Positions 1-14,885 of a stretch of DNA of 50,028 bases are shown in pieces (positions within the stretch are counted from its first letter, which is position 1; every line of letters starts with the position of its first letter). The translations under genes and the position numbers were made by a program. Location: sequence record SRR2962707_1575; one strand, written 5' to 3'. The notes beneath the pieces were generated by a model. It worked only from the letters and a program-made list of their open reading frames with translations, was not told the DNA's origin and did not search any database.

Positions 1-30
1 CTCATCGATAACAGAATGAATAAGGCGTAA
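1..30 (+). CDS. acs: 3' end of probable acetyl-CoA synthetase (partial, runs off window)
   Basis: Frame 1 reads LIDNRMNKA*, resembling the C-terminus of alphaproteobacterial Acs (..LIENRMNR); sits directly upstream of adk-DUF4212-actP. Only 9 codons are visible. Confidence 0.6.
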   Translation, partial: LIDNRMNKA

Positions 31-35
31 TCAGG

Positions 36-725
36 ATGCAAAACCCACAACAGACAACCGATATCGCCCCTGTCCTGATCCTTCTTGGCCCTCCGGGCGC
101 CGGGAAGGGCACGCAGGCCCGCAGATTGGAAACGGATTTTGGTTTGGTTCAATTGTCGACCGGTGATTTACTGCGGGCCGCTGTGGCCGCAGGCACCGAG
201 GCCGGCAAACACGCCAAAGCCGTGATGGAAGCGGGCGAACTGGTCAGCGACGACATCGTCATCGCCATTCTGCGTGATCGTCTGACCGAACAGGATACGG
301 CCAACGGCGTAATCTTGGACGGCTTCCCACGGACCACGGTTCAGGCAAAGGCTCTGGATAACCTGCTGGCCGAGACCGGGCAAAAAATCAACGCAGCCAT
401 AAGCTTAGAGGTAGACGACTCTGCGATGGTAACGCGGATTTCCGGGCGCTTCACCTGTGGAGCCTGCGGAGAAGGCTACCACGACAGCTTTAAGGCACCG
501 CGGGTTGAGGGCGTTTGTGACAATTGTGGCGGCCGCGATATGAAACGCCGGGCGGATGACAATGCTGCCACCGTGGCAAGCCGTCTGACCGCGTACCACG
601 CCCAGACGGCCCCCTTGATCACCTATTACGAGACCAAAGGCGCCTTGAGCCGCATTGATGCGATGGGCGCCATTGAGGACATCGCCGCCGGGCTTGGCGG
701 GATTGTTCAAAAGGCCACGGCATAA
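36..725 (+). CDS. adk: adenylate kinase (Zn-lid type)
   Basis: P-loop GPPGAGKGT, LSTGDLLR, ILDGFPRT; lid CGAC..CDNC; RRADD. Confidence 0.96.
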   Translation: MQNPQQTTDIAPVLILLGPPGAGKGTQARRLETDFGLVQLSTGDLLRAAVAAGTEAGKHAKAVMEAGELVSDDIVIAILRDRLTEQDTANGVILDGFPRTTVQAKALDNLLAETGQKINAAISLEVDDSAMVTRISGRFTCGACGEGYHDSFKAPRVEGVCDNCGGRDMKRRADDNAATVASRLTAYHAQTAPLITYYETKGALSRIDAMGAIEDIAAGLGGIVQKATA

Positions 726-786: not shown

Positions 787-1074
787 ATGGCGGATCAACT
801 ATCACAAGGTGCACAAAGTACTCAGGAGTCTGACAAAGGCTATTGGGCCGCAAATGTGCGCATCATTCTTATCAGCTTGGTCATCTGGGCTGTGGTGTCG
901 TTTGGCTTTGGCATCTTGCTGCGCCCTGCCCTGTCGGGCATCGCGGTCGGCGGCACCGATCTCGGATTTTGGTTCGCGCAACAGGGCTCAATCATTGTCT
1001 TTTTGGCGCTGATCTTTTTCTACGCCTGGCGGATGAACAAACTCGACCGTGAATACGGTGTAGAGGAGGAATAA
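787..1074 (+). CDS. DUF4212 small membrane protein (solute:Na+ symporter small subunit)
   Basis: YW..N, two hydrophobic helices, LGFWFAQQGS motif; GAGGAGG RBS before ATG 787; directly upstream of the SSS gene. Confidence 0.9.
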   Translation: MADQLSQGAQSTQESDKGYWAANVRIILISLVIWAVVSFGFGILLRPALSGIAVGGTDLGFWFAQQGSIIVFLALIFFYAWRMNKLDREYGVEEE

Positions 1075-1079
1075 GCGCA

Positions 1080-2864
1080 ATGGATCAGTTTACAATCAAC
1101 CTGCTGTTTGTCGGTGCGAGTTTTGCGCTGTACATCGGCATCGCGATTTGGGCCCGTGCGGGTTCAACCAGCGAATTCTACGCCGCCGGTCGCGGCGTTC
1201 ACCCTGTCACAAACGGTATGGCCACAGCGGCGGACTGGATGTCAGCGGCGTCCTTCATCTCGATGGCCGGTCTTATTGCCTTTACCGGTTATGACAATTC
1301 AACCTTCTTGATGGGCTGGACTGGTGGCTATGTTCTGTTGGCTTTGCTGCTTGCGCCATACCTGCGCAAATTCGGCAAATTCACCGTTTCTGAGTTCATC
1401 GGCGACCGATTCTATTCGCCAACAGCGCGGATTGTTGCGGTGATCTGTTTGATTGTCGCCTCGACCACGTACGTTATCGGTCAGATGACCGGTGTCGGCG
1501 TGGCCTTTGGACGCTTCCTTGAAGTGAGCAACACAACCGGTCTTCTTATCGGTGCTTGTGTGGTTTTTGCCTACGCGGTTTTCGGCGGCATGAAGGGTGT
1601 GACCTACACGCAGGTTGCCCAGTACTGCGTGTTGATCCTGGCCTATACGATCCCAGCGATTTTCATCTCGCTGCAACTGACCGGCAACCCGATCCCCGCG
1701 CTTGGCTTGTTTGGTGATCACGTTGCAAGCGGCGTGCCTTTGTTGACCAAGCTGGATGCGATCGTGTCTGAACTTGGCTTTAACGAATATACCACGCACC
1801 ACGCAGACACACTGAACATGGTATTGTTCACCTTGTCCCTGATGATCGGTACAGCTGGCCTGCCCCACGTCATCATGCGCTTTTTCACCGTGCCTCGGGT
1901 GGCAGATGCTCGTTGGTCTGCGGGTTGGGCCTTGGTCTTTATTGCCCTACTCTATCTGACAGCCCCAGCTGTTGGCGCCATGGCGCGCCTGAACATCACA
2001 GACATGATGTGGCCAAATGGCACAAACAGCGAAGCGGTTTCGGTTGAACAGATCGAAACAGAAAAGCGCTATGACTGGATGGCAACCTGGCAGAAAACTG
2101 GCTTGCTGGATTGGGAAGACAAGAACGGCGACGGACGCATCCAATACTACAACGATCAGGATGCAGACATGCAGGCCAAAGCGGCTGAGCAAGGTTGGAC
2201 CGGCAACGAGCTGACCAAGTTTAACCGTGACATCCTAGTTCTCGCCAACCCCGAAATCGCGAACTTGCCATCATGGGTCATTGGCCTTGTGGCGGCAGGC
2301 GGTCTTGCGGCGGCGTTGTCAACAGCGGCTGGTCTGCTTTTGGCAATCTCCTCTGCCGTATCGCATGACCTGATCAAAGGGTCGCTCAATCCGAAAATCT
2401 CGGAGAAGAACGAGCTTTTGTCAGCGCGTATTGCCATGGGTGTTGCGATTGCTGTCGCTACTTACCTGGGCCTGAACCCTCCCGGCTTTGCCGCACAGAC
2501 CGTGGCCTTGGCCTTTGGTTTGGCTGCTGCGTCGATCTTCCCGGTTCTGATGATGGGTATCTTCTCGACCAAGATCAACAATGTCGGCGCTGTTGCTGGT
2601 ATGTTGGCCGGTCTGACAGTGACTTTGCTCTATATCTTCTTGCACAAAGGTTGGTTCTTTGTTCCAGGCACCGCGTCCTTCTCGGATGCAGACCCGTTGC
2701 TTGGCACGATTAAGTCCACATCCTTTGGCGCAATTGGGGCTGCGATCAACTTTGCAGTTGCTTATGTTGTCTCCGGTATGACCAAAGAAACACCACAACA
2801 TATCAAAGACTTGGTAGAAAGTGTTCGTGTTCCACGTGGCGCAGGATCTGCGCAGGACCACTAA
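1080..2864 (+). CDS. actP: sodium:solute symporter, cation/acetate symporter ActP-like
   Basis: GMATAADWMSAASF, GTAGLPHV..RFFT, AAALSTAAGLL motifs; many TM segments; acs/DUF4212 context. Confidence 0.88.
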   Translation: MDQFTINLLFVGASFALYIGIAIWARAGSTSEFYAAGRGVHPVTNGMATAADWMSAASFISMAGLIAFTGYDNSTFLMGWTGGYVLLALLLAPYLRKFGKFTVSEFIGDRFYSPTARIVAVICLIVASTTYVIGQMTGVGVAFGRFLEVSNTTGLLIGACVVFAYAVFGGMKGVTYTQVAQYCVLILAYTIPAIFISLQLTGNPIPALGLFGDHVASGVPLLTKLDAIVSELGFNEYTTHHADTLNMVLFTLSLMIGTAGLPHVIMRFFTVPRVADARWSAGWALVFIALLYLTAPAVGAMARLNITDMMWPNGTNSEAVSVEQIETEKRYDWMATWQKTGLLDWEDKNGDGRIQYYNDQDADMQAKAAEQGWTGNELTKFNRDILVLANPEIANLPSWVIGLVAAGGLAAALSTAAGLLLAISSAVSHDLIKGSLNPKISEKNELLSARIAMGVAIAVATYLGLNPPGFAAQTVALAFGLAAASIFPVLMMGIFSTKINNVGAVAGMLAGLTVTLLYIFLHKGWFFVPGTASFSDADPLLGTIKSTSFGAIGAAINFAVAYVVSGMTKETPQHIKDLVESVRVPRGAGSAQDH

Positions 2865-2869
2865 ATAAT

Positions 2870-2944
2870 TGAGATGGCCGGGCCCTGTAATGGCCATCTC
2901 ACTCCCAGTCCCGCCCGGTTTCCCCCTGGGCGGGACACCTTTTC
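2870..2944 (+). terminator. two tandem hairpins after actP
   Basis: TGAGATGGCC(2870-2879)/GGCCATCTCA(2892-2901); GTCCCGCCCGG(2908-2918)/CTGGGCGGGAC(2926-2936) followed by a short T run. Confidence 0.6.
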
Positions 2945-2960: not shown

Positions 2961-4787
2961 ATGACACTTCCACAAGACGAGCTTCTGCGTTTTCTCAGCG
3001 CTGTGCATCCTTACGATGCTCTGCCCAAAGACGTTCTGATCCGGTTGTTGACGCAAATCACACAGCGTCACCTGGAAATCGGAGAGCCAGTTTACACGTT
3101 CGGAGACGAGCTGGACGGTCTCTACATTATCCACCGCGGCGAGATTGAAGTCCGCGACGAAAACGATGAGCCCGTTTCCCTTTTGGGGCCTCGAAATTCC
3201 TTCGGTGAACGTGGATTGCTACGGGACGGGCTTGCCGCGACCACGGCTATTGCGCGCCGTGAAAGCCGCCTTTTGCTGTTGCCCAAGTCCGATATTCTGA
3301 CGTTGATCGATACGGACGGGGCGATGGCAAAGTTCTTTGACCGCTCCCGCAAACCGCGTGGGATTGGCAACGACCTTGCGACTTGTCAGGTCGACACGTT
3401 AATGGCCAAGACCCCCTTGACGACCACGTCCGACACAACAGTTCAGGATGCCGCCCGCCGGATGCGCGACGCCGGAGTTTCCTCGATTTGCATTGTAGCG
3501 CCAGACCAAACACTCGAAGGGATTGTGACGATCCGCGATATCTCGGGAAAAGTGGTGGCTGACGGCTTGCCGGGCACAACTGGCCTGACCCAAATCATGA
3601 CAAAGTCTCCGTTGACCTTGCCACCCTCTGCCATTGGGTCCGATGTTCTGCACAGTATGCTGGAACACGGCATTGGTCATATTCCCGTGGTCCAAGCCAA
3701 GCGGCTGGTTGGGATCGTCACGCAAACTGATCTGACCCGTTTTCAAGCCATAAGCTCAGCCGAGCTGGTCTCTGAAATCGCTCGTGCTCCGGATGCCAAA
3801 ACCATGGCTCGGGCCACCGCACGCATCCCGGACCTGCTTGTCCACCTTGTCGCCGCGGGCAACCGACATGAGATTGTTACCCGACTGATCACAGACATAG
3901 CCGATACCTGCACTCGACGCTTGTTAAGCCTGGCCCATGCTGAGCTGGGCCCTGCCCCGGTTCCCTACTTGTGGCTGGCCTGTGGCAGTCAGGGACGTCA
4001 GGAACAGACCGGCGTCAGCGATCAGGACAATTGTTTGATCCTTGACGATCAGGTGACGGACGCAGACATGGCCTATTTTCAGGATCTGGCGAAATTCGTC
4101 TGTGATGGGTTAAACACCTGCGGCTATGTTTATTGTCCCGGCGACATGATGGCGAGCAACCCAAGATGGTGTCAGCCCTTGTCGGTCTGGCGCGACTATT
4201 TCGGATCATGGATCAACAAACCTGATCCCGAAGCCCAGATGCTGGCCAGTGTGATGTTTGATCTCAGGGCCATCGGAGGCGCTTCTGAGCTGTTTGAAGA
4301 CCTGCAACAATTGACTTTGAAAGCTGCAAATACCAACTCGATCTTTGTCGCTCATATGGTCAGCAATTCCTTAAAGCACACGCCGCCTTTGGGATTACTT
4401 CGCGGGTTTGCCACCATTCGATCGGGCGAGCATAAAAACCAGCTTGATCTGAAACATAATGGAGTGGTTCCGGTGGTGGATCTTGGCCGGGTCTATGCTT
4501 TGCAAGCCTGTCTAGATGTCGTCAATACGCGCGCAAGATTAGAGGCCGCTGTCGCCGCGGGGGTATTGAGCGACTCTGGGGGCCGCGATTTGTTGGATGC
4601 CTATGACCTGATCGCTGAAATTCGGCTCGAGCATCAATGCAACCAGATCAAAAACAACGAGAAACCTGACAATTTCCTTGCGCCCGCAGATCTTTCAGAC
4701 TTTGACCGAAGTCATCTGCGCGACGCCTTTGTTGTGGTAAAGACATTGCAATCCTCGGTCGGTCACGGGCGAAGTATCATGGTTTAG
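2961..4787 (+). CDS. cNMP-binding / CBS-pair / DUF294 putative nucleotidyltransferase
   Basis: N-terminal cNMP-like domain (FGERGLL), two CBS domains, GSQGRQEQ..SDQDN nucleotidyltransferase motif, C-terminal DUF294_C (FDLR, DLKHNG); AAGAGGA RBS before ATG 2961. Confidence 0.9.
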   Translation: MTLPQDELLRFLSAVHPYDALPKDVLIRLLTQITQRHLEIGEPVYTFGDELDGLYIIHRGEIEVRDENDEPVSLLGPRNSFGERGLLRDGLAATTAIARRESRLLLLPKSDILTLIDTDGAMAKFFDRSRKPRGIGNDLATCQVDTLMAKTPLTTTSDTTVQDAARRMRDAGVSSICIVAPDQTLEGIVTIRDISGKVVADGLPGTTGLTQIMTKSPLTLPPSAIGSDVLHSMLEHGIGHIPVVQAKRLVGIVTQTDLTRFQAISSAELVSEIARAPDAKTMARATARIPDLLVHLVAAGNRHEIVTRLITDIADTCTRRLLSLAHAELGPAPVPYLWLACGSQGRQEQTGVSDQDNCLILDDQVTDADMAYFQDLAKFVCDGLNTCGYVYCPGDMMASNPRWCQPLSVWRDYFGSWINKPDPEAQMLASVMFDLRAIGGASELFEDLQQLTLKAANTNSIFVAHMVSNSLKHTPPLGLLRGFATIRSGEHKNQLDLKHNGVVPVVDLGRVYALQACLDVVNTRARLEAAVAAGVLSDSGGRDLLDAYDLIAEIRLEHQCNQIKNNEKPDNFLAPADLSDFDRSHLRDAFVVVKTLQSSVGHGRSIMV

Positions 4788-4825
4788 CGACGTTTCGGCC
4801 ACCAAGGCCAACGTCCGAGGGAGGA

Positions 4826-5332
4826 GTGGACATGTTCTTAGAACTCATCGCAACATTCATCGCAGGCATCGCTGCCGCAGGTGTCATCATGTTGATCAAC
4901 AAGATCACCGGCAATCACTTGCCGCGCTGGATCGTACCTGTGGTAGCCGGTCTTGCGATGTTGGGTATGACAATTTCCAGCGAATACAGCTGGTATTCCC
5001 GCACCAAAGCCGGATTGCCCCAAGGTCTGGCCGTGGCTCAGACGGTTGAGAACCGCGCGGTTTATCGTCCATGGACTTACGTGCTGCCTTACACCAACCG
5101 CTTTGTCGCTGTGGATCAACCTGCCACACGCACAAACACCGACGATCCCGCTTTGAAATTGGCTGATCTTTACTTTTATGGTCGCTGGTCAACCGTTCAG
5201 GCGGTCCAGGTGATGGTAAATTGCTCGACCGGGCAACGCGCCGACCCGATGGAAGGGACGACTGGCGCTCAGATCTGGCATGACGTAGGCTATGAAGACC
5301 CGATTGTCTTCACCGTTTGCGGAAAGGTCTAA
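4826..5332 (+). CDS. hypothetical membrane-anchored protein
   Basis: Two N-terminal hydrophobic helices then a soluble domain with 2 Cys; strong GGAGG RBS (start may be ATG 4832); abuts next gene. Confidence 0.75.
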   Translation: MDMFLELIATFIAGIAAAGVIMLINKITGNHLPRWIVPVVAGLAMLGMTISSEYSWYSRTKAGLPQGLAVAQTVENRAVYRPWTYVLPYTNRFVAVDQPATRTNTDDPALKLADLYFYGRWSTVQAVQVMVNCSTGQRADPMEGTTGAQIWHDVGYEDPIVFTVCGKV

Positions 5333-5333
5333 C

Positions 5334-6752
5334 ATGTTCGCTCATCTGAGCTTGCGCCTGCGTGTATTTCTTTTTTTCATCCTATTGGCCGTCGGCAGTG
5401 TCGTGTTGGTCTGGGCTGCGATGTGGCTTGGATATCAACGATCTACACAGGTCGGGGTATCTTCGGCCTTTGTCTTTTCGGCCATCCTTTCTGCGTTCCT
5501 GATCCTTGGCCTTGTCGCCGGAATCTGGTTGCTGTTTGACGAGAATGTCGCAAAGCCCATCAACCAATTGGCAGCTGATATGCGGGTTCGCGCCCATGCA
5601 GAGGTTTCCCAAAGCTTGGACGTTTCATCGGCGCGTTTTCTGGGCGATCTCGGCCCCGCCGTCGACGCGGTTACACGCCAACTCGGTGATACAACAATGG
5701 CCACAGCCAAAATGGTCGCTCAGGAAACCGAACGCCTGAAATCTGAGACGTCGCGCCTTACTGCCCTGCTGACCGAAATTCCCGTTGCCGTGATCCTAGT
5801 CAGCCCGACAGACCAAATTGTTCTGTACGATGGTCAAGCCGCCGAAGTGCTGTCTCAGGTCCACACTCCCCGTCTGAATGCCAGTATCTTTGACTATTTT
5901 GAGGCCAAGTCTTTTGGTGCAGCCCAGCGCAAACTGCAAAAAACCGGGATGGACGTGGCGTTCACAGCCCAAAGCGTTGATGGGGTTCAGTCTTATAGCG
6001 CTCATTTGCGCCCCATGGACGGCGGCGGCTACATGTTTGTGATCGACGACGCGGTTGCAAAGATTTCACCAAAAGAAGCCCGCCCACTTGTCTATGACTT
6101 TGACCTAATCGGCAAACCAGTTGGGCAGGTCTTAGAGAACACCCGCCTCAGCGATTTGTGCTTTGTGGTATTTGACACCGAAACCACCGGATTGTTGCCC
6201 CATAAAGACGAAATCGTTCAGATTGGTGCAGTCCGGGTCATCAATGGCCGTATCGTAGACGGTGAACAAATTGACCAACTGGTCGACCCAGGCATGCCGA
6301 TCCCCCCTTCTTCGACCAAGGTGCACGGGGTGACGGATGCTATGGTCGCAGGCAAACCGAAGATATCTGAGGCCGGATTGGCCTTTCATATGTTTGCCCA
6401 ACAATCCGTGATTGTGGCCCATAATGCCCCCTTTGACATGGCGTTTTTGCGCCGCCATGCCCGCGACATGGGGGTAAGCTGGGATCATCCGATTCTAGAC
6501 ACTGTGCTTTTGTCTGCAGTGTTGTTTGGCACATCAGAACGACACATGCTGGACACTCTGTGCGAACGTCTGGACGTCACGATACCCGAAGCGCTCCGCC
6601 ACACCGCTTTGGGCGACGCTCAGGCCACTGCAGAAGTTCTGGTCAAGATTTTGCCAATGCTCGAAGCCCGCGGCATGAAGACGTTGGGCGATGTTTTGGA
6701 ACAAACCCGTCAGCATGGCCGGTTGCTCGAAGACCTCAATAGCCCAAAGTAA
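5334..6752 (+). CDS. membrane-anchored PAS-like + DEDDh 3'-5' exonuclease (DnaQ-like domain)
   Basis: Two TM helices, coiled linker, PAS-like segment (EIPVAVILV..DQIVLYD), ExoI VFDTETTG, ExoII AHNAPFD, ExoIII HTALGDA. Confidence 0.88.
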   Translation: MFAHLSLRLRVFLFFILLAVGSVVLVWAAMWLGYQRSTQVGVSSAFVFSAILSAFLILGLVAGIWLLFDENVAKPINQLAADMRVRAHAEVSQSLDVSSARFLGDLGPAVDAVTRQLGDTTMATAKMVAQETERLKSETSRLTALLTEIPVAVILVSPTDQIVLYDGQAAEVLSQVHTPRLNASIFDYFEAKSFGAAQRKLQKTGMDVAFTAQSVDGVQSYSAHLRPMDGGGYMFVIDDAVAKISPKEARPLVYDFDLIGKPVGQVLENTRLSDLCFVVFDTETTGLLPHKDEIVQIGAVRVINGRIVDGEQIDQLVDPGMPIPPSSTKVHGVTDAMVAGKPKISEAGLAFHMFAQQSVIVAHNAPFDMAFLRRHARDMGVSWDHPILDTVLLSAVLFGTSERHMLDTLCERLDVTIPEALRHTALGDAQATAEVLVKILPMLEARGMKTLGDVLEQTRQHGRLLEDLNSPK

Positions 6753-6758
6753 CGGTGC

Positions 6759-7613
6759 TTAGGTGCGCGTCCGCGCCAGCGCCAAAGCACCGTCGACAGC
6801 GGAACCTTTGGCAGGTTCGACAACCATCTGCATGGTCTCGGGCAGATAAGACCAATAGGCCGCGCCAAGATCACCGGGCATGCAGATCGGCACGCCCAAG
6901 GTCCAGCCCAATTGCTCAAACGCTTGGGCGATCCATGTCCCGCCGCGTTGCATGATCACCTTGGCGCCTCGATCACCAACAGAGGCAGAGCCAATCACAC
7001 CAGAAGCCAGTTTTGAATATTCGCGCGGTGTGGCGTCGCGCGCGAATTCTACAATTGCCATGGCGCCACCGAACTCATCCAATATGGCTCTGGTCAGCGC
7101 TGTATGTTGAACCAGACCGTCATGCGCCCTTAGGGTGCGGCGCAACACTTCACGACCAAGCCACGCCGCTGACGCTTCGTCGCTGAGGGTTAGACCCCAT
7201 CCGCCGACACCGAACAGATCCTCGCCTTTTCGCTTTAGGACAAAACTATCTGTACTTAGCCCCGCGACGAAGCCATCTCGTTCGCCCAGCGCACCAACCG
7301 CCAAGGCACGCTTTTTGTCTTCGATTGTGGCGTGATTGAACGGCAGCGCCTGCAACAATATGGCGGCATCTTCATCTGTAACCAGTCCAGCAATGCCGAG
7401 ATAGGCTTGGGCGTCACACAGGTTGGCCAGCGTCGTCCCAGCCTTTTCTGCCAAAGACTGGCAGGCTTCGACAATAGCCTGGGCACATCCCTGCGGATCG
7501 GTCGAAAAATCCACGCCGCGCCCGATGAAATCAACGCGACGCCCCGGATCTGACCAAGCAACGCGACAGCGCGTTGCACCACAATCAATTCCTATGTGCC
7601 CAGAGTGAGTCAT
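6759..7613 (-). CDS. BadF/BadG/BcrA/BcrD ATPase family, N-acetylglucosamine/glucosamine kinase-like (divergent)
   Basis: GIDCGATRCR phosphate-1 loop, GIAG, GGWGLTLSDEASAAWLG, A..GAL C-terminus. Confidence 0.8.
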   Translation of the reverse strand: MTHSGHIGIDCGATRCRVAWSDPGRRVDFIGRGVDFSTDPQGCAQAIVEACQSLAEKAGTTLANLCDAQAYLGIAGLVTDEDAAILLQALPFNHATIEDKKRALAVGALGERDGFVAGLSTDSFVLKRKGEDLFGVGGWGLTLSDEASAAWLGREVLRRTLRAHDGLVQHTALTRAILDEFGGAMAIVEFARDATPREYSKLASGVIGSASVGDRGAKVIMQRGGTWIAQAFEQLGWTLGVPICMPGDLGAAYWSYLPETMQMVVEPAKGSAVDGALALARTRT

Positions 7614-7640: not shown

Positions 7641-8912
7641 CTATGCGAGGGCTCTATTACCATTGTGAAGCCTACCCGCCCCGAGTGCACTTATTGCGAC
7701 CATTCCGGCTGCAATTGCCAAACAAAGTGCCACGCCGCCAAGCTGATAAGAGACACCCGACAAGACCGTGCCGATAAGGCGCCCTGCCGCATTCGCCATA
7801 TAGTAGAACCCGACGTCCATGCTGACCCGGTCCTCTTTGGTAAAGGCCAAAATCAGATAGGAATGCAGGGACGAATTGACCGCAAACAAGGCCCCAAAGA
7901 GCAATAGACCTGCGACAATTGACGTGGTGAGCCAAGGTGTCGGCTCTCTTGCCCACCAAACCAACGCCGCCAGCAAGGCCGGCACAAAGCTTAACATCAA
8001 AGCCCAGCGCCTTGCGTCACCGATGATGTCGGCCAGAGGGCGTGTATTGGCGCGCAGAAGCTTTGGAGCTGCGCCCTGCACCGCCCCATAGAGGATGATC
8101 CACCCCGCCATAAATACACCAATGGTGAAAAACGCCGTCCGGTTCCCGATTTCTGAACCGTCAGACAGCACTGCATAGAAATAGACCGGGATCCCGACCA
8201 CGAACCACACATCGCGGGCGCCAAAGAGAAAGACGCGGGAAAAGCTCAGCCAGTTTACATTCCGGTTCTTGGAAAACACTTCGCGGAATTTGGCATCTTT
8301 GCGCCCGGCCGGTAACCCCGCAGGCATCCGCAGAATTACCGCCAAAAGGATTGCCCCCAGGATAGCTGCCATCGCCCAGACGGCGGGCACAAATCCCAAA
8401 GTGCCCAGCAATGCCGCCCCTAACAGAAAGCCCAAGCCTTTGACCGCGTTCTTTGATCCCGTCAGAAGCGCCACCCAACGAAACAGGCCGCCTTGCCCTT
8501 TCGGGGCCAACAATTTGACTGCGCTTTTTGCACTCATCTTCGACAGGTCTTTTGCGACGCCAGACAAGCCTTGTACCAACATCACATAGGTCACCGACAA
8601 GCCAATAGCCCAGCTTGGGTCCAGTTGAGCAAGCGCCACCAAAGCGATCACTTGCAAGCCAAGCCCAACATAGAGCGTAGATGTCAGCCCAAATCGCGAT
8701 GCGATCCAGCCAGCGGATAAATTGGTCACAACTCCCGCGATTTCATACAGCACAAACAGATACGCCAGCTGCACCGGCGAATAGCCCAACGTATGAAAAT
8801 GCAGCAAAACCAACATGCGCAAAGCGCCGTCTGTCAGCATAAAAGCCCAATAGGCTGCTGTGACGGCGATATACGCCGCCAAGCCTTCGGGCCGCACATT
8901 GGCCTGTGTCAC
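7641..8912 (-). CDS. arsJ: organoarsenical efflux MFS transporter ArsJ
   Basis: [55 protein letters not shown] start overlapping the gap stop (GTGA). Confidence 0.93.
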
Positions 8913-9907
8913 AGGGAGGCTCCAACCATTTGCGCAACATCGGCCAAGCGGTTCGCATAGCCCCACTCATTGTCATACCAAGCATAGATCTTGGCCTGCG
9001 TACCGTTCACCACCATGGTTGACGGGGCATCCACGATCGTCGAGCGCGCGTCGTTGACATAGTCAGTTGATACGAGAGGCCGAGTTTCATAACCCAAGAT
9101 ACCTAGAAGGGTCGTCTCAGACGCCTCTTTGAAGGCAGCATTTATTTCTTCGCTCGTGGTCTCGCGGTTGAGTTCGAAAACACAATCCGTCAAGGACGCG
9201 TTCAGCAAAGGGACCCGCACCGCATGGCCGTTCAGTTTTCCCTTAAGCTCTGGATAGATCAGAGTGATCGCTGTGGCGGACCCAGTGGTCGTTGGAATTA
9301 GGGAATTCAAAGCTGATCGGGCGCGTCGCAGATCTTTGGCCGGGCGGTCCACAATTGTTTGTGTATTGGTCACATCATGGATCGTTGTCATAGATCCATG
9401 TTTGATCCCAAAGGTTTCGTGCAGAACTTTCACAACGGGCGCCAAACAGTTGGTTGTGCAGGATGCCGCCGTAATGATCCGGTGCACCGCCGGATCATAG
9501 ATGCCCTCATTCACGCCCATCACGATGTTTGCCGCTTCGTCTTCTTTCACAGGTGCCGAGACCACAACTTTTTTCACCCCGGCTGCGAAATAGGGCTCGA
9601 GCTTTTCAGTGGTTTTAAAGACGCCGGTGCAATCAATCACCACGTCGACACCTTCCAAAGGCAGATCTTCGATCTTGTCGGCATTGAAAACCGGCAAACG
9701 CGTTCCGTCAATCGTGAGAGACTCCGCGTCCGAAGAGAACTCAGCCTTCCACCGCCCATGAACGGTATCGAATTCCAGCAAATGTGCATGCATGGCCGCA
9801 TCGCCCACGGCATCATTCAAAAAGGCGATCTCTGCTCCCTTTTCCAGAAGCGGGCGCAAAGCAAGTTTGCCCATACGGCCAAGGCCATTGATTGCATAGG
9901 TCGTCAT
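8909..9907 (-). CDS. gap: ArsJ-associated glyceraldehyde-3-phosphate dehydrogenase
   Basis: [15 protein letters not shown] catalytic motif, WYDNEWGY; translationally coupled between arsR-arsC and arsJ. Confidence 0.93.
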
Positions 9908-10737
9908 TCTAATTCCTCGTGTTCAGACTGCGCGATGGCGTCAACTGCGGCTTGGACCGACATGCGATCCAATGTGCTAAAAGGCAGCGCGGCAAAGGCG
10001 GTAATCCGTCTTTGCAACGCGGTGTAAGTGTCTCGAAAAGCGCGATGAATGTCGCTGGCCTCGCCACTTGCGGCGGGGTCTGGCACCCCCCAGTGCCCAA
10101 TGACCGGCGCGCCGTTCCAAGGTTTGCTGTCTTCATTTGCGGCTTGGTTACATACCGTCAGAACGAAATCCATATTTGGCGCTTCTTCGCTCTGGAACTC
10201 CTGAACCGGCTTGGAGCTTAAAGACGACACATCATGTCCAAGGCTTTCGAGCAGCTCTAATGCGGCCGGGTTCGGTTCTGACTTTGGGGAAGTCCCTGCT
10301 GAATACACCATGAAGTTTCCGGCCCCCAAATCGCGCAGCAAACACTCGGCCAAAATCGACCGCGCTGAGTTTCCAGTACATAGAAACAAAACTTTGTATG
10401 GTTTTTGCGACGGCTCGCCTTGGGACTGCCAACGGGTGTCTGCGGAAAGATCGGAACGTCCGCTACAACAATCCTGAAACAAGAAGTCCGACAAGGCCTG
10501 AACTTCCTTCATGTTCACGCGGTAAAGCCGTGACGTGCCCTGCCGGATTTGAGTAATAAGGCCAACCCCAGTCAGCGCAGACAAGTAGACAGACAGGGTG
10601 CTGGGCTTAATGCCAAGTGACCCCGCGATTTCCCCAGCGGGTACCGCATTTGGGAACCGGCGGATCAGCAGTCGAAAGACCGACATGCGCCCGGCATGAC
10701 CCAAGGTGGTCAACTTATCAAGATTCTCTATTTCCAT
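9904..10737 (-). CDS. ArsR-family HTH fused to LMW-PTP-type arsenate reductase (ArsC) domain
   Basis: N-terminal ArsR HTH ending in DCC; C-terminal [13 protein letters not shown]-loop, SAGT, HWGVPDP. Confidence 0.88.
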
Positions 10738-10972: not shown

Positions 10973-12397
10973 ATGAACACGGATCAGCCATTTGACGAGA
11001 TGTGGGGCTCGGGTGAAGCACTTCGCGCCCCCTATGAGAAATTCCACAACTGGTTAGAGGACGAAAACCCTGCCCGGTTACGCGCCAAGCAACGTGAGGC
11101 TGAAGAGCTTTTCAGGCTCACTGGAATTACATTTAATGTTTACGGCCGCGCAGAGGCTGAGGAACGATTAATTCCATTTGATTTGATCCCACGCATCGTT
11201 TCAGGCAGCGAATGGAAAAAGCTGAGCCGCGGCATCGAACAACGCGTCCGAGCCATAAATGCGTTTCTTTATGACATCTATCACCGTCAGGAGATTCTGA
11301 AAGCCGGTCGTATCCCAAAGGAAATGATCAGCAACAACGACGCCTTCTTGCCTCAGATGATTGGCGTCTCACCTCCCGGCGGCGTTTATACTCATATCGT
11401 TGGCGTCGATCTGGTACGTACAGACGACAACCAGTTTTACGTATTGGAAGACAACGCACGCACCCCATCCGGCGTCAGCTACATGCTCGAAAACCGCGAG
11501 ACCATGATGCAGATGTTCCCTGAGCTGTTTTCGAAAAACCGTGTTCAACCTGTTCAAAACTATGCCCGTGATTTGCGACGGTCTTTGGCGGCTTGCGCCC
11601 CGGCCAGTACGGTTGGCACCCCCACTGTGGCAGTTTTGACGCCTGGGATATTTAACTCTGCCTATTTTGAACACGCGTTCTTGGCCGACCAAATGGGCGT
11701 CGAATTGGTCGAAGGTCACGACCTGAGTGTTCATGAAGGCCGCGTAGTGATGCGCACGACACAAGGCTTCAAGGCGATTGATGTGCTGTATCGTCGGGTA
11801 GACGACGAATACCTTGATCCATTGAACTTTGATCCATCCAGTATGTTAGGCGTTCCTGGCCTTATGGATGTTTATCGTGCCGGAGGCATCACCATTGCCA
11901 ACGCTCCGGGAACAGGCATCGCTGACGACAAAGCGATCTACAGCTACATGCCGGAAATCGTCGAGTTTTATACCGGTGAAAAAGCCATTTTGCAGAACGT
12001 GCCGACATGGCGCTGTTCTGAACCAGATGCTTTGGCCCATGTTTTGGATAATTTATCCGATCTCGTGGTGAAAGAAGTGCATGGCTCTGGTGGATACGGC
12101 ATGCTGATCGGGCCAACGGCCTCGAAGAAAGAAATCGCCGCCTTCCGCAAAAAGCTGATGTCAAAGCCCGGCAATTACATCGCGCAGCCGACACTTTCCT
12201 TGTCGACCGTACCGATCCTCACGAAACAAGGGCTTTCGCCACGCCACGTCGACTTGCGCCCCTTTGTTTTGGTCAGCCCTGCCGGTATTAATGTGACCCC
12301 AGGGGGTTTAACTCGGGTTGCCCTTAAGAAAGGGTCTCTGGTCGTGAATTCTTCGCAAGGCGGAGGCACCAAGGATACTTGGGTGCTGGAGGATTAA
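10973..12397 (+). CDS. circularly permuted type 2 ATP-grasp protein
   Basis: GITFNVY, PFDLIPR, LEDNARTPSGVSY, YRRVDD, GSGGYGM, HVDLRPF, VVNSSQGGGTKDTWV. Confidence 0.93.
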   Translation: MNTDQPFDEMWGSGEALRAPYEKFHNWLEDENPARLRAKQREAEELFRLTGITFNVYGRAEAEERLIPFDLIPRIVSGSEWKKLSRGIEQRVRAINAFLYDIYHRQEILKAGRIPKEMISNNDAFLPQMIGVSPPGGVYTHIVGVDLVRTDDNQFYVLEDNARTPSGVSYMLENRETMMQMFPELFSKNRVQPVQNYARDLRRSLAACAPASTVGTPTVAVLTPGIFNSAYFEHAFLADQMGVELVEGHDLSVHEGRVVMRTTQGFKAIDVLYRRVDDEYLDPLNFDPSSMLGVPGLMDVYRAGGITIANAPGTGIADDKAIYSYMPEIVEFYTGEKAILQNVPTWRCSEPDALAHVLDNLSDLVVKEVHGSGGYGMLIGPTASKKEIAAFRKKLMSKPGNYIAQPTLSLSTVPILTKQGLSPRHVDLRPFVLVSPAGINVTPGGLTRVALKKGSLVVNSSQGGGTKDTWVLED

Positions 12398-12399
12398 GC

Positions 12400-13341
12400 A
12401 TGCTAGGTAAAACAGCCAATGGGCTTTATTGGATGTACCGCTATATCGAGCGGGCCGAAAACACGGCGCGCCTCATTGAGACCGGCCAAAGGATTGCTTT
12501 GACCCGTTCCGGCGATGTTGACGGAGAATGGGCCTCTGTGATGCAGACCGCCGGTGTTCTTGAAGGTTACAACGCCCATAACGAAACCCTGTCAAAAGAC
12601 GCCGCCATTGATTGGATGGTCCGTTCTAAAGACAACCCGTCGTCCTTGATGTCGTCCATCTCAACTGCGCGCCACAACGCAAGAATGGTTAGAACCGCCC
12701 TTACCCCTGAAGTGTGGGAAGCGGTAAACGCCTGTTATATGCGCGTACAAGGCGCAACCAAGCGCAAAGTCAGTGAACGGGATCTGCCGGGTGTGCTGAA
12801 AATGGTGCGCCAGGGCACCGCCTTGGTACGCGGGGCCACTCACGGCACGATGCTGCGCAACGACATTTACAACTTCTGCCGGATTGGCACCTTTCTGGAA
12901 CGCGGCGACTACACTGCGCGCATTCTCGACGTAAAATACTATGTTTTGCTGCCGTCGTCTTTTTCCGTTGGGTCCAACATCGACAACGTGCAGTGGGAAA
13001 CCATCTTGTTATCCGTGTCCGCCCATGGTGGGTACCGCATGACATACGGCAATACGATCACCCCGCGCGATATCTCGCATTTCTTGATGCTCGACAAACG
13101 CATGCCTCGGAGCCTAAATTTCTGTGCGTCAAAAATTCGGGACAACCTGAAATACATTGAGGATGATTATGGGACGCAGACGAAATCTCATACCATCGCC
13201 AAAGGACTGGTCCAACGCTTCATGTCTCATGACGTGGATGCAATTTTTGATTACGGACTGCACGAGTACATTCAGGATATGGTCGCATCCCTCGGTGAGC
13301 TTGGTAAGCAAATCGAAATCGATTATCGCTTTTATGAGTAA
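12400..13341 (+). CDS. alpha-E domain protein (DUF403)
   Basis: ML..TA..LYWM.RY.ERAENTAR and second GTFLER..TARILDVKY repeat, PRSL. Confidence 0.92.
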   Translation: MLGKTANGLYWMYRYIERAENTARLIETGQRIALTRSGDVDGEWASVMQTAGVLEGYNAHNETLSKDAAIDWMVRSKDNPSSLMSSISTARHNARMVRTALTPEVWEAVNACYMRVQGATKRKVSERDLPGVLKMVRQGTALVRGATHGTMLRNDIYNFCRIGTFLERGDYTARILDVKYYVLLPSSFSVGSNIDNVQWETILLSVSAHGGYRMTYGNTITPRDISHFLMLDKRMPRSLNFCASKIRDNLKYIEDDYGTQTKSHTIAKGLVQRFMSHDVDAIFDYGLHEYIQDMVASLGELGKQIEIDYRFYE

Positions 13342-13344
13342 GTC

Positions 13345-14142
13345 ATGCATTTAAAAATCAATCACCGCACACATTACACGTTCGAGCAACCCATCCTGTC
13401 TGGTCTTCAACAATTGCGCGTGACGCCTAAGGTTTCTCATGGTCAGAAAATACTGAACTGGAAAACCAACATTACCGGCGGGGAGAGCCAATTAACCTTT
13501 GATGATCACCACAACAATCACGTCGAATTGGTCAGTCTGAACAAAGACATGACGGAAATTACAATCGATGTGGAAGGTGAGGTCTATGTCGAAGACAAAA
13601 CCGGAATTGTGGGCCCACACCATGGCCCCGCTCCGCTTTGGCTGTATATGAAACCAACGGCGCACACAAAACCCGGCCCCGGATGCAATGCGTTGATCAA
13701 ACAAGTCACCGCCAGTTCTGATCTCGAACAATTGCATCAGCTGTCGGCGATCATTCTAGAGGCCGTGAAATACAAAACCGGCATGTCCGACACGGATTGG
13801 ACGGCCGAGGACGCTATTTCACAGGCCGTTGGTGTCTGCCAGGACCACACGCACATTTTTTCGTCATGTGCGCGAAAGATGGGCTTTCCGGCAAGGTACG
13901 TCTCGGGGTATTTGATGATGGAAGACAGAGTCGACCAAGACGCGACTCATGCTTGGTCAGAGGCCCACATTCCAGATTTGGGCTGGGTTGGCTTTGATGT
14001 CTCAAACGGAATTGCACCGGACGGGCGCTATGTGCGCATGGCAACAGGACTTGACTATACTGAGGCTGCTCCGGTCATAGGAACAAGAGTAGGAGGCGCA
14101 GAAGAAGCGCTTTCGGTCGCCATACAAGTGGCGCAGCAGTAA
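13345..14142 (+). CDS. transglutaminase-like protein
   Basis: I.H.T.Y N-terminus; GVCQD (Cys), RYVSGY, HAW.E (His), GWVGFD (Asp). Confidence 0.93.
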   Translation: MHLKINHRTHYTFEQPILSGLQQLRVTPKVSHGQKILNWKTNITGGESQLTFDDHHNNHVELVSLNKDMTEITIDVEGEVYVEDKTGIVGPHHGPAPLWLYMKPTAHTKPGPGCNALIKQVTASSDLEQLHQLSAIILEAVKYKTGMSDTDWTAEDAISQAVGVCQDHTHIFSSCARKMGFPARYVSGYLMMEDRVDQDATHAWSEAHIPDLGWVGFDVSNGIAPDGRYVRMATGLDYTEAAPVIGTRVGGAEEALSVAIQVAQQ

Positions 14143-14153
14143 GAAAGACGAAG

Positions 14154-14885
14154 ATGACGTATTGTGTTGGGATGACCTTGAACCGTGGGCTTGTGTTCAT
14201 GTCGGATACCCGCACCAATGGTGGCATTGATAACATTTCAAGTTTTCGGAAAATGCGGTCGTGGGAAAACCCTGGGGACCGCATGATTACGATTATGACG
14301 GCGGGCAACCTTGCAACCACTCAAGCCGTCGTCAGTATGTTGGACGAACGCACAAAGGCAGCCGAGGACCGCAACCCAAGCATCATGCAAGCCCCATCGA
14401 TGTTTCAAGTCGCCCGCGAAGTGGCGGATATCTTGCGTGACATCATTCTTGAGCACCGAGATGGCGGACAACGCGCCGACAGTTCTTTCAACGCGACAAT
14501 CCTTTTGGGTGGTCAGATCGCAGGCGGCCCTCCCCGTCTGTTTATGATTTATCCAGAGGGCAACTTCATCGAAGCCGGTGAAGACACGCCTTTCTTTCAG
14601 ATTGGGGAAACAAAATACGGGCGCCCAATTTTGGTCCGCGCGTATGATCCGGATATGAGTTTTGAAGAGGCTGTAAAGCTCTTGCTTGTCAGTTTTGATT
14701 CCACAGTAAAGGCAAACCTGTCTGTCGGTGCGCCCTTTGATTTGCATTTGTATGAGGCCGACAGCCTGCACTGTGGTTTCGAAACGCGGATCGAACAGGA
14801 TGACGCCTATTTCAATACCATTTCCAAAGGTTGGGGCGATGCATTGAAAAACGCGTTGGACAGCCTTCCCGACTATGAAATCTGA
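14154..14885 (+). CDS. proteasome-type NTN peptidase (Anbu)
   Basis: N-terminal Thr (MTYCVG), SDTRTN.G.D, AGNLATTQ, IYPEGNFI, QIGETKYG; fourth gene of the ATP-grasp/alpha-E/transglutaminase operon. Confidence 0.93.
   Translation: MTYCVGMTLNRGLVFMSDTRTNGGIDNISSFRKMRSWENPGDRMITIMTAGNLATTQAVVSMLDERTKAAEDRNPSIMQAPSMFQVAREVADILRDIILEHRDGGQRADSSFNATILLGGQIAGGPPRLFMIYPEGNFIEAGEDTPFFQIGETKYGRPILVRAYDPDMSFEEAVKLLLVSFDSTVKANLSVGAPFDLHLYEADSLHCGFETRIEQDDAYFNTISKGWGDALKNALDSLPDYEI

What the first reader, a model, noticed from the sequence alone, without database searches (positions are those of the whole stretch)
2961..6752. Candidate writer/eraser signalling module in the acetate operon: AMP-sensing nucleotidyltransferase plus membrane PAS-exonuclease
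Seen: after acs-adk-DUF4212-actP come a cNMP/CBS/CBS/DUF294 protein with an intact GS..R.E....DQD motif, a small membrane protein, and a 2-TM/PAS-like protein whose output is a DEDDh nuclease rather than a histidine kinase. Known: the GS..DxD motif belongs to the pol-beta/GlnD/GlnE nucleotidyltransferase superfamily, CBS pairs bind adenine nucleotides, and DUF294 plus exonuclease genes often flank actP, but I know of no established mechanism. Inference: DUF294 adds NMP to a protein or RNA (or makes a small nucleotide signal) in response to AMP from Acs, and the exonuclease domain removes it under membrane/PAS control, tuning acetate uptake.
Basis: partly seen in the sequence, partly recalled or inferred. 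Interest (0 to 1): 0.72.

Follow-up and report, generated by a model that had tools for sequence, protein, structure and literature searches.

The report
Nucleotide writer/eraser pair beside carboxylate transporter
Behind a small-organic-acid transporter in a marine-type alphaproteobacterium lie two intact, widely conserved enzyme genes, one predicted to have the fold of enzymes that tag proteins with AMP and one a membrane-anchored exonuclease-type hydrolase; together they likely switch the transporter off and on, a pairing already noted in print but whose chemistry I found untested.

Summary
P0001 (2961-4787) is cNMP-CBS-CBS-DUF294-DUF294_C with invariant GS/DQD residues. Its model matches GlnE and DrrA best (Z 24-27). 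P0003 (5334-6752) is 2TM-HAMP-PAS-DEDDh with all catalytic residues intact. In a phylum sample 74 of 81 DUF294 genes have a DEDDh gene beside them or fused (72 on a strict count), and 57 of 59 DUF294 genomes carry an ActP/VC_2705-like symporter.

The cNMP pocket is degenerate. The small membrane protein follows the transporter, not the nuclease. P0003 descends from a pseudo-histidine-kinase chain; the dead kinase and its receiver gene were lost, apparently once.

In published P. putida mutants, loss of the exonuclease mimics loss of the symporter on pyruvate and loss of the transferase does not, which fits an inhibitory writer and an activating eraser. Neither mutant has a defect on 20 mM acetate, and both are impaired on propionate, where the symporter mutant is not.

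Best reading: reversible protein NMPylation of the symporter (0.4). The enzyme pair is known but uncharacterised, and this scan found it before on other DNA.

The parts
1..30 (+). last 9 codons and stop of acs (acetyl-CoA synthetase); the rest lies outside the window
   Evidence: translation matches the C-termini of acs-like ORFs upstream of adk in related loci; the name acs rests on that position and on recall
36..725 (+). adk, adenylate kinase
   Evidence: PF00406 E 1.5e-55; TIGR01351 above cut-off; present in 23 of 29 close loci
787..1074 (+). DUF4212 small subunit of the sodium/solute symporter
   Evidence: PF13937, TIGR03647; family shown to be needed for transporter function in 10.1101/072470
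1080..2864 (+). VC_2705-family sodium/solute symporter (not ActP proper); likely C2-C3 carboxylate or D-alanine importer and the likely regulated target
   Evidence: TIGR03648 817 bits over cut-off 321; ActP models below cut-off; family substrates lactate and D-alanine
2870..2936 (+). two GC-rich hairpins (2870-2901, 2908-2936) between symporter and NTase; possible partial terminator or mRNA-stabilising element
   Evidence: RNAfold of the gap gives -44.9 kcal/mol; similar hairpins in most of 13 related gaps inspected by eye, no shuffle control; not called by the terminator scan
2961..4787 (+). P0001, 608 aa: cNMP-binding fold (degenerate pocket), CBS pair (adenosyl motif intact), GlnE/DrrA-like nucleotidyltransferase DUF294 + DUF294_C; predicted writer
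4832..5332 (+). 167-aa membrane protein: N-terminal helical hairpin plus beta domain with two invariant cysteines, weakly Protein-E-like; likely accessory of the symporter rather than of the nuclease
   Evidence: model pLDDT 92.7; best fold match 3zh5 Z 7.7, weak; 10 of 10 homologues lie just downstream of a TIGR03648 symporter, 6 directly behind it
5334..6752 (+). P0003, 472 aa: 2TM with a ~15-aa outer loop, HAMP/coiled coil, PAS-like domain, YDF linker, intact DEDDh domain (D281 E283 D368 H423 D428); predicted eraser
6060..6090 (+). approximate junction where about 210 aa of pseudo-histidine-kinase (DHp + CA) present in longer relatives are missing
   Evidence: alignment gap; two separate BLAST blocks against L021; tree

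Best explanation
The DUF294 protein is predicted to be a GlnE/DrrA-type enzyme that likely attaches a nucleotide (probably AMP) to the neighbouring carboxylate symporter or its small subunit and so would turn uptake down, and the membrane-anchored DEDDh protein likely removes the tag and would turn uptake back on. Shown here: domain layout, intact and conserved catalytic residues of both enzymes, tight linkage and occasional fusion of the two, near-obligate genome co-occurrence with ActP/VC_2705-like symporters, and descent of this exonuclease from a pseudo-kinase chain. Inferred: the CBS pair reads the adenylate pool (Acs makes AMP and Adk recycles it in the same operon), so that uptake would follow energy charge; the substrate is a protein side chain, by analogy a tyrosine; the writer is inhibitory; the 2TM-HAMP-PAS part holds the eraser at the membrane and may gate it. 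In this lineage the phosphorelay input seen in relatives (receiver plus dead kinase) is gone.
For: Fold: the top three of 48,161 representative chains are GlnE N-terminal domain (Z 27.1, rmsd 3.5, 314 aligned), GlnE adenylylation domain (Z 25.8, 3.0, 308) and DrrA (Z 24.3, 3.6, 299) (same order); that all three act on protein-tyrosyl-AMP is recalled. Pairing: a DEDDh gene lies within 2.5 kb of 72 of 81 DUF294 genes and is fused in 2 more; 25 of 28 sequence clusters have such a pair; in three loci with two pairs, each exonuclease sorts with its own transferase. Transporter link: 57 of 59 DUF294 genomes against 13 of 91 others have the symporter; 54 of 55 against 11 of 34 among genomes of 3 Mb or more. 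Symporter within 4 kb for 51 of 81, acs within 5 kb for 24 of 81; 4 of the 30 without a symporter call have a BCCT gene nearby and 1 another SSS gene. Transferase tree distances correlate with symporter distances (rho 0.65, 58 loci). Genetics: in P. putida the exonuclease mutant, like the actP-I and yjcH mutants, is impaired on pyruvate and the transferase mutant is not (PMC9927547; 10.64898/2026.09.07.749794). DUF4212 is cofit with a nearby RNase T-domain gene in Shewanella and P. stutzeri (10.1101/072470). Recalled, no call: DnaQ hydrolyses the aryl ester pNP-TMP and a 3'-5' phosphodiesterase removes AMP from glutamine synthetase, so the chemistry is feasible.
Against: No activity, nucleotide or target was shown here or in the papers found (searches). 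On propionate both the exonuclease and the transferase mutant grow less well while the actP-I and yjcH mutants do not, which a simple antagonistic switch on that symporter does not predict. No defect on 20 mM acetate. Both papers with phenotypes speculate on expression or mRNA instead. I found no cytoplasmic tyrosine specific to DUF294-linked symporters. 13 of 70 symporter genomes lack DUF294. Deep tree distances of transferase and exonuclease correlate only weakly (rho 0.16). Kinship inflates all counts: 20 of the 81 transferases form one cluster. The closest solved relatives of the nuclease domain are DNA exonucleases (PolC, DnaQ), and I know no DEDDh enzyme shown to de-nucleotidylate a protein. 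The P. putida and Shewanella enzymes are taken as homologues from the papers' domain descriptions, not from an alignment here.
Confidence: 0.4

Rival explanations
1. Same writer/eraser chemistry, but the tagged protein is soluble, most likely Acs or another acyl-CoA synthetase (as GlnE acts on glutamine synthetase); uptake phenotypes are indirect.
For: Same fold and pairing evidence. acs and adk head this operon. Propionate phenotypes of both mutants without a symporter phenotype. 10.64898/2026.09.07.749794 suggests pathway control by protein modification.
Against: acs is near only 24 of 81 DUF294 genes. Acs is essential on acetate, yet neither mutant has an acetate defect. The eraser is membrane-anchored here.
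Confidence: 0.17
2. The pair makes and destroys a small nucleotide or nucleotidylated metabolite (a dinucleotide or similar) that allosterically gates the transporter.
For: The superfamily includes small-molecule and second-messenger NTases, and some DEDDh enzymes cut dinucleotides (recalled). It fits the epistasis-like pattern equally well.
Against: No small-molecule or cyclase NTase appears in the top 50 fold matches, although CBS and cNMP rows crowd that list. No conserved receptor gene was seen in the loci.
Confidence: 0.15
3. The pair tails and trims an RNA 3' end (for example the symporter mRNA at the hairpins after it) and so sets transporter expression.
For: DEDDh proteins are nucleases by family. 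[quoted passage not shown] Conserved hairpins follow the symporter gene.
Against: The transferase fold is GlnE/DrrA-like, and no CCA-adding or poly(A) polymerase is among the top 50 matches. Membrane anchoring and kinase-derived control suit a membrane target better.
Confidence: 0.15
4. The exonuclease is a generic DNA nuclease or spare proofreader and the linkage is incidental.
For: Sources name it DNA polymerase III epsilon; best PDB sequence hits are PolC and DnaQ.
Against: It fails the dnaQ and PolC cut-offs. 5 of 5 related genomes have a separate true dnaQ. 74 of 81 linkage including fusions. Carbon-source-specific phenotype, and no role in using DNA as food.
Confidence: 0.05

Closest known systems
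PP_0354/PP_0353 of Pseudomonas putida KT2440, Pflu5625 of P. fluorescens, PA3233/PA3232 (COG2905 protein plus RNase T-like exonuclease of the CrbS/R = MxtR/ErdR regulon)
   Same: cNMP-CBS-CBS-nucleotidyltransferase next to a DEDDh gene, linked to actP/yjcH-type transport genes; function unknown, nucleotidylation proposed
   Different: Here the exonuclease is fused to 2TM-HAMP-PAS rather than standing alone as in most gammaproteobacterial-type loci, the symporter is VC_2705-family, and adk and an extra membrane gene are in the operon. No CrbS-like kinase gene was seen in the first 14 kb of the window; the rest was listed but not annotated.
GlnE (glutamine synthetase adenylyltransferase), GlnD, DrrA AMPylase domain
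   Same: NTase core plus helical C-terminal domain (Z 24-27), GS-x-DxD motif; DUF294_C is grouped with GlnD/GlnE C-terminal domains (PMC3710099)
   Different: Only 11-14% identity. Sensors are CBS and cNMP folds instead of PII or ACT. The proposed eraser is a separate DEDDh hydrolase, where GlnD uses an HD domain and GlnE a second NT domain (recalled). No target is known.
Long form: 2TM-HAMP-PAS-pseudo-histidine kinase-DEDDh with stand-alone receiver, often beside an SLC5-fused kinase; works like DivL-DivK (comparison taken from an earlier scan note, recalled biology)
   Same: Same N-terminal part (36% identity) and nuclease (57%), same operon position
   Different: The window protein lacks the ~210-aa dead kinase and has no receiver gene: receiver beside 26 of 29 long forms and 0 of 24 short forms.
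DUF4212 + VC_2705-family symporters of Shewanella amazonensis and Pseudomonas stutzeri (lactate, D-alanine)
   Same: Same two Pfam/TIGR families; cofit with a nearby RNase T-domain gene
   Different: Substrate of the window's transporter is untested; it carries an additional 167-aa membrane gene found in 10 of 72 genomes searched.

Membership tests
COG2905 / DUF294 signalling nucleotidyltransferases | cNMP-binding, CBS pair, DUF294, DUF294_C in one chain | tested here: met
   all four Pfam families above their cut-offs; the COG2905 label itself is from PMC9973855 and recall
COG2905 / DUF294 signalling nucleotidyltransferases | intact pol-beta motif G-S ... D-x-D | tested here: met
   G342 S343 D354 Q355 D356 invariant in 69 of 69 and in about 110 of 111
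GlnE/GlnD/DrrA protein nucleotidyltransferases | NTase core plus helical C-terminal domain | tested here: met
   Z 27.1, 25.8, 24.3 over 299-314 residues
GlnE/GlnD/DrrA protein nucleotidyltransferases | transfers NMP to a protein tyrosine | not testable with these tools
   no assay; no target-specific tyrosine found by alignment
GlnE/GlnD bifunctional enzymes | removing domain in the same chain | tested here: not met
   P0001 has no such domain; 2 of 81 homologues carry a fused RNase_T domain
CBS (Bateman) adenylate sensors | G-h-h-T/S-x-x-D ribose-binding motif (motif recalled) | tested here: met
   G187 97%, T190 97%, D193 94%; second site D257 69%
CBS (Bateman) adenylate sensors | AMP as the specific ligand | not testable with these tools
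   fold matches include AMP-, ADP-, ATP- and SAM-bound CBS pairs at tied Z
cAMP/cGMP receptors | phosphate-binding cassette Glu and Arg (motif recalled) | tested here: not met
   FGE present, but the Arg position is Ala93 here and Arg in about 26% of homologues; Glu83 in 35%
DEDDh exonucleases | D, E, D, H, D catalytic set | tested here: met
   D281 E283 D368 H423 D428
DnaQ proofreading subunit / PolC | score above family cut-off | tested here: not met
   TIGR01406 108 vs 222.7; PolC 151 vs 873; separate dnaQ in 5 of 5 relatives
Sensor histidine kinases | 2TM-HAMP-PAS input | tested here: met
   weak, seen only through the family profile
Sensor histidine kinases | DHp with phospho-His and CA domain | tested here: not met
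   absent in P0003; in long relatives the segment is homologous to true kinases (E 8e-17 to 7e-7) but no aligned row shows the H-box His (mostly D or E)
ActP cation/acetate symporter | equivalog cut-off | tested here: not met
   TIGR02711 152 vs 1099; NF006903 187 vs 750
VC_2705-family symporter with DUF4212 subunit | TIGR03648 and TIGR03647 above cut-off, adjacent | tested here: met
   817 vs 321 and 114 vs 26
Haemophilus Protein E-like beta fold (membrane protein 4832-5332) | structural match | tested here: inconclusive
   top hit in both searches but weak: Foldseek E 0.097, Z 7.7, rmsd 3.1, 92 aligned

The most novel reading that the evidence does not exclude
A secondary transporter is switched by reversible AMPylation: a CBS-gated GlnE-like enzyme tags the symporter complex according to energy charge, and a DEDDh 'exonuclease', recruited to the membrane on a sensor-kinase scaffold, acts as a protein de-AMPylase. 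That would be a new activity for the DEDDh family and a new way of controlling carbon uptake in about 40% of the sampled Pseudomonadota. The 167-aa protein would be an unrecognised third subunit of VC_2705-family symporters.
Probability: 0.3. Interest if true: 0.85.

Novelty: new variant of a known kind. Interest (0 to 1): 0.5.

Why it matters
The family is large (5,461 cluster representatives at E<=1e-10; 59 of 150 sampled Pseudomonadota genomes). It has been predicted to signal by nucleotidylation since 1999 (cited in PMC5715377), with no substrate found in my searches. The pattern assembled here gives one cheap test: the double mutant should rescue the exonuclease mutant. If the reading is right, it adds post-translational control of carboxylate uptake in roseobacters and pseudomonads, and a protein-directed activity for thousands of genes now mislabelled 'DNA polymerase III epsilon'. 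The window's copy is itself ordinary within its clade. What it adds is the evolutionary step (loss of dead kinase and receiver together) and the reassignment of the small membrane protein to the transporter.

Tried and rejected
No whole genome is held for the window, so genome-level tests used relatives. Complex prediction (symporter + DUF4212 + membrane protein) was not available, so no binding claim was tested. The ESM Atlas gave no answer. Sequence search of the PDB with the DUF294 profile gave nothing below E 0.03, and with the membrane-protein profile nothing meaningful. Looking for a target tyrosine across 77 symporters found only tyrosines shared by all or confined to one subfamily; DUF4212 has an invariant Y19, but nothing links it to modification. 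N-termini of 41 stand-alone exonucleases are richer in Trp (4.0% vs 0.8%) and Arg/Lys than their cores, hinting at membrane binding, but I ran no outside control and do not rely on it. The promoter/terminator scan was at shuffle level. Loss of cNMP in 18 of 21 transferases beside long exonucleases is mostly one sequence cluster, so it was rejected as independent evidence. 'DUF294' hits in two preprints were DUF2946. Aravind and Koonin 1999 is not held. One search was void (wrong year bound). The 150 proteins were not scanned for architecture. Rows dropped before counts: 17 weak PF10335 hits (E>=7.8e-6, long ORFs, probably GlnE/GlnD) and the centre genome G001. L098 (apparent chimera with acs) and L028 (frameshifted) were left out of the pseudo-kinase profile but remain in the 29 long forms. 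17 near-duplicate loci and most stand-alone exonucleases were left out of the tree. Two of the 72 'adjacent' exonucleases (L136, L137) are opposite-strand genes that look like ordinary RNase T, hence the strict count of 72 of 81.


Full report
Observation. The window opens with the last codons of acs (nt 1-30), then adk, DUF4212 and a sodium/solute symporter, all on +. The symporter passes TIGR03648 (VC_2705 family) and fails the ActP models. Next come P0001 (2961-4787), a 167-aa membrane protein (4832-5332) and P0003 (5334-6752). The next gene is convergent. The sequence is alphaproteobacterial: the closest named locus is Pseudoprimorskyibacter insulae at 72% identity. All 29 close loci keep symporter, transferase, membrane protein and exonuclease in order.

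The writer. P0001 is cNMP-CBS-CBS-DUF294-DUF294_C. Across 69 aligned homologues the invariant residues cluster in the catalytic half: G342, S343, R346, D354, Q355, D356, C392, G394, K498, R510, R526. The AlphaFold model (pLDDT 90.7) matches the two GlnE domains and DrrA ahead of everything else among 48,161 chains (Z 27.1, 25.8, 24.3). That these act on protein-tyrosyl-AMP is recalled. The first CBS motif is nearly invariant, while the cNMP pocket lacks its arginine. An adenylate ligand is therefore likely, cAMP is doubtful, and AMP specifically is not shown.

The eraser. P0003 has two membrane helices with a very short outer loop, a segment whose family profile matches VicK HAMP-PAS (E 1.4e-5), and a DEDDh domain with all five catalytic residues. 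It is not the replicative proofreader. Longer relatives (29 found) carry about 210 more residues between PAS and nuclease. A profile of that insert alone hits true histidine kinases from the same loci (E 8e-17 to 7e-7; HisKA and HATPase_c confirmed for one), but the H-box histidine is replaced, mostly by Asp or Glu. A stand-alone receiver lies beside 26 of 29 long forms (25 by filter, plus L025 seen) and 0 of 24 short forms. The three long forms without it have an eroded or missing DHp. On a tree of 49 nuclease domains the 19 short forms are one clade (97/91) nested among long forms, with stand-alone exonucleases outside. So the window's protein most likely arose by one deletion of the dead kinase, with loss of the receiver. 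One tree of about 220 columns, midpoint-rooted, supports this; no clade test was run.

Pairing. In 150 Pseudomonadota genomes, 59 have a strong DUF294_C hit. I fetched the surroundings of all 81 such genes. A DEDDh gene lies within 2.5 kb in 72 and is fused in 2 (fusions); two of the 72 look like ordinary RNase T. The seven without are L076, L091, L098 (apparent chimera), L112, L120 (contig end), L124 and L134 (a Cache-PAS-DUF294 receptor). By cluster, 25 of 28 have a pair. Nearest neighbours agree between the two trees in 67 of 78 pairs, but deep distances correlate weakly (rho 0.16). Transferase and symporter distances correlate better (0.65). Shared descent inflates these figures.

Transporter link. 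57 of 59 DUF294 genomes have an ActP/VC_2705-like symporter, against 13 of 91 others; the contrast holds for genomes of 3 Mb or more. Locally the symporter is within 4 kb of 51 of 81 genes and acs within 5 kb of 24 (regions reach only about 6 kb each way). Four of the remaining 30 have a BCCT gene nearby and one another SSS gene. PMC3412718 (one passage seen) notes a DUF294-dnaQ operon in Bacilli.

The small membrane protein. It models as a helical hairpin plus a beta domain with two invariant cysteines and resembles Protein E only weakly. In 72 genomes chosen for having symporter or DUF294, 10 carry it, always just downstream of a TIGR03648 symporter. Six follow the symporter directly, and in G114 the DUF294 gene is on another contig. 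It was not found in the genomes that pair a long exonuclease with an ActP-type symporter. It more likely serves the transporter. Binding was not tested.

Literature. PMC9927547 (passages and sections 7, 8): the P. putida exonuclease mutant and the actP-I mutant are impaired on pyruvate, the CBS-protein mutant is not, and none is impaired on 20 mM acetate; a 5 mM acetate fitness defect is cited second-hand. 10.64898/2026.09.07.749794 (passages and section 20) repeats this, adds that both enzyme mutants but not the transporter mutants are impaired on propionate, and suggests energy sensing with protein modification. PMC5715377 (passages): Pflu5625 is a CrbR target without phenotype, predicted to act by nucleotidylation, citing Aravind and Koonin 1999, which I could not read. 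10.1101/072470 (passages and section 42): DUF4212 symporters carry lactate or D-alanine and are cofit with a nearby RNase T-domain gene; the gene label there is ambiguous and the supplements were closed. PMC9765439 (passages): PA3232-PA3235 are induced on propionate. PMC3710099, PMC9973855 and PMC9870897 were seen as passages only. My searches found no biochemical study; subscription journals are mostly outside the library.

Mechanism. The simplest model covering fold, linkage and the pyruvate and cofitness data is an inhibitory NMP tag on the symporter complex, written under CBS control and removed by the membrane-held DEDDh domain (0.4). The propionate data, the lack of an acetate phenotype and the absence of any DEDDh precedent known to me keep the rivals alive: a soluble target such as Acs (0.17), a small nucleotide signal (0.15), RNA tailing and trimming (0.15), an incidental nuclease (0.05).

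Novelty. The enzyme pair is known and uncharacterised. This scan has reported it on other genomes, including the same layout and the long pseudo-kinase form. I rate the window's form a variant of that known kind. The open question is old and now cheap to test, hence interest 0.5.

Noticed in passing
window 7641-10737 (-): Arsenic resistance cassette: ArsR-arsenate reductase-like fusion, ArsJ-associated GAPDH and ArsJ; the last two pass their NCBIfam cut-offs. Known system.
   Followed up: partly
window 6759-7613 (-): BadF/BadG-family kinase, N-acetylglucosamine kinase-like but below cut-off; found near this operon in only 1 of 29 close loci.
   Followed up: partly
window 10973-14885 (+): Four-gene run that by recall resembles the circularly permuted ATP-grasp / alpha-E / transglutaminase / peptidase operon; no NCBIfam hit at 1e-15, not scanned in Pfam.
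   Followed up: no
window 2870-2936: Twin GC-rich hairpins between symporter and transferase, with similar hairpins in most of 13 related gaps.
   Followed up: partly
L134:3907-6468: Cache-PAS-DUF294 membrane receptor form of the transferase with no DEDDh neighbour; weak N-terminal DUF6915 hit.
   Followed up: partly
L131:6000-8117, L133:4323-6467: RNase_T-CBS-CBS-DUF294-DUF294_C fusions: writer and proposed eraser in one chain.
   Followed up: yes
L101, L106, L115: Two divergent transferase-exonuclease pairs back to back; each exonuclease groups with its own transferase.
   Followed up: partly
window 2786-2864 and homologous symporters: Both symporter subfamilies found beside DUF294 mostly end in a short Gly/Ala-rich tail with a terminal His; role unknown.
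   Followed up: no
L076, L085, L086, L088: DUF294 genes with a BCCT transporter gene nearby instead of an SSS gene.
   Followed up: no
L098:1442-3841; L028:7593-12371: L098 looks like a chimeric join of the sensor-exonuclease with acs; L028 has frameshifts in transferase and exonuclease. Probably assembly errors.
   Followed up: no
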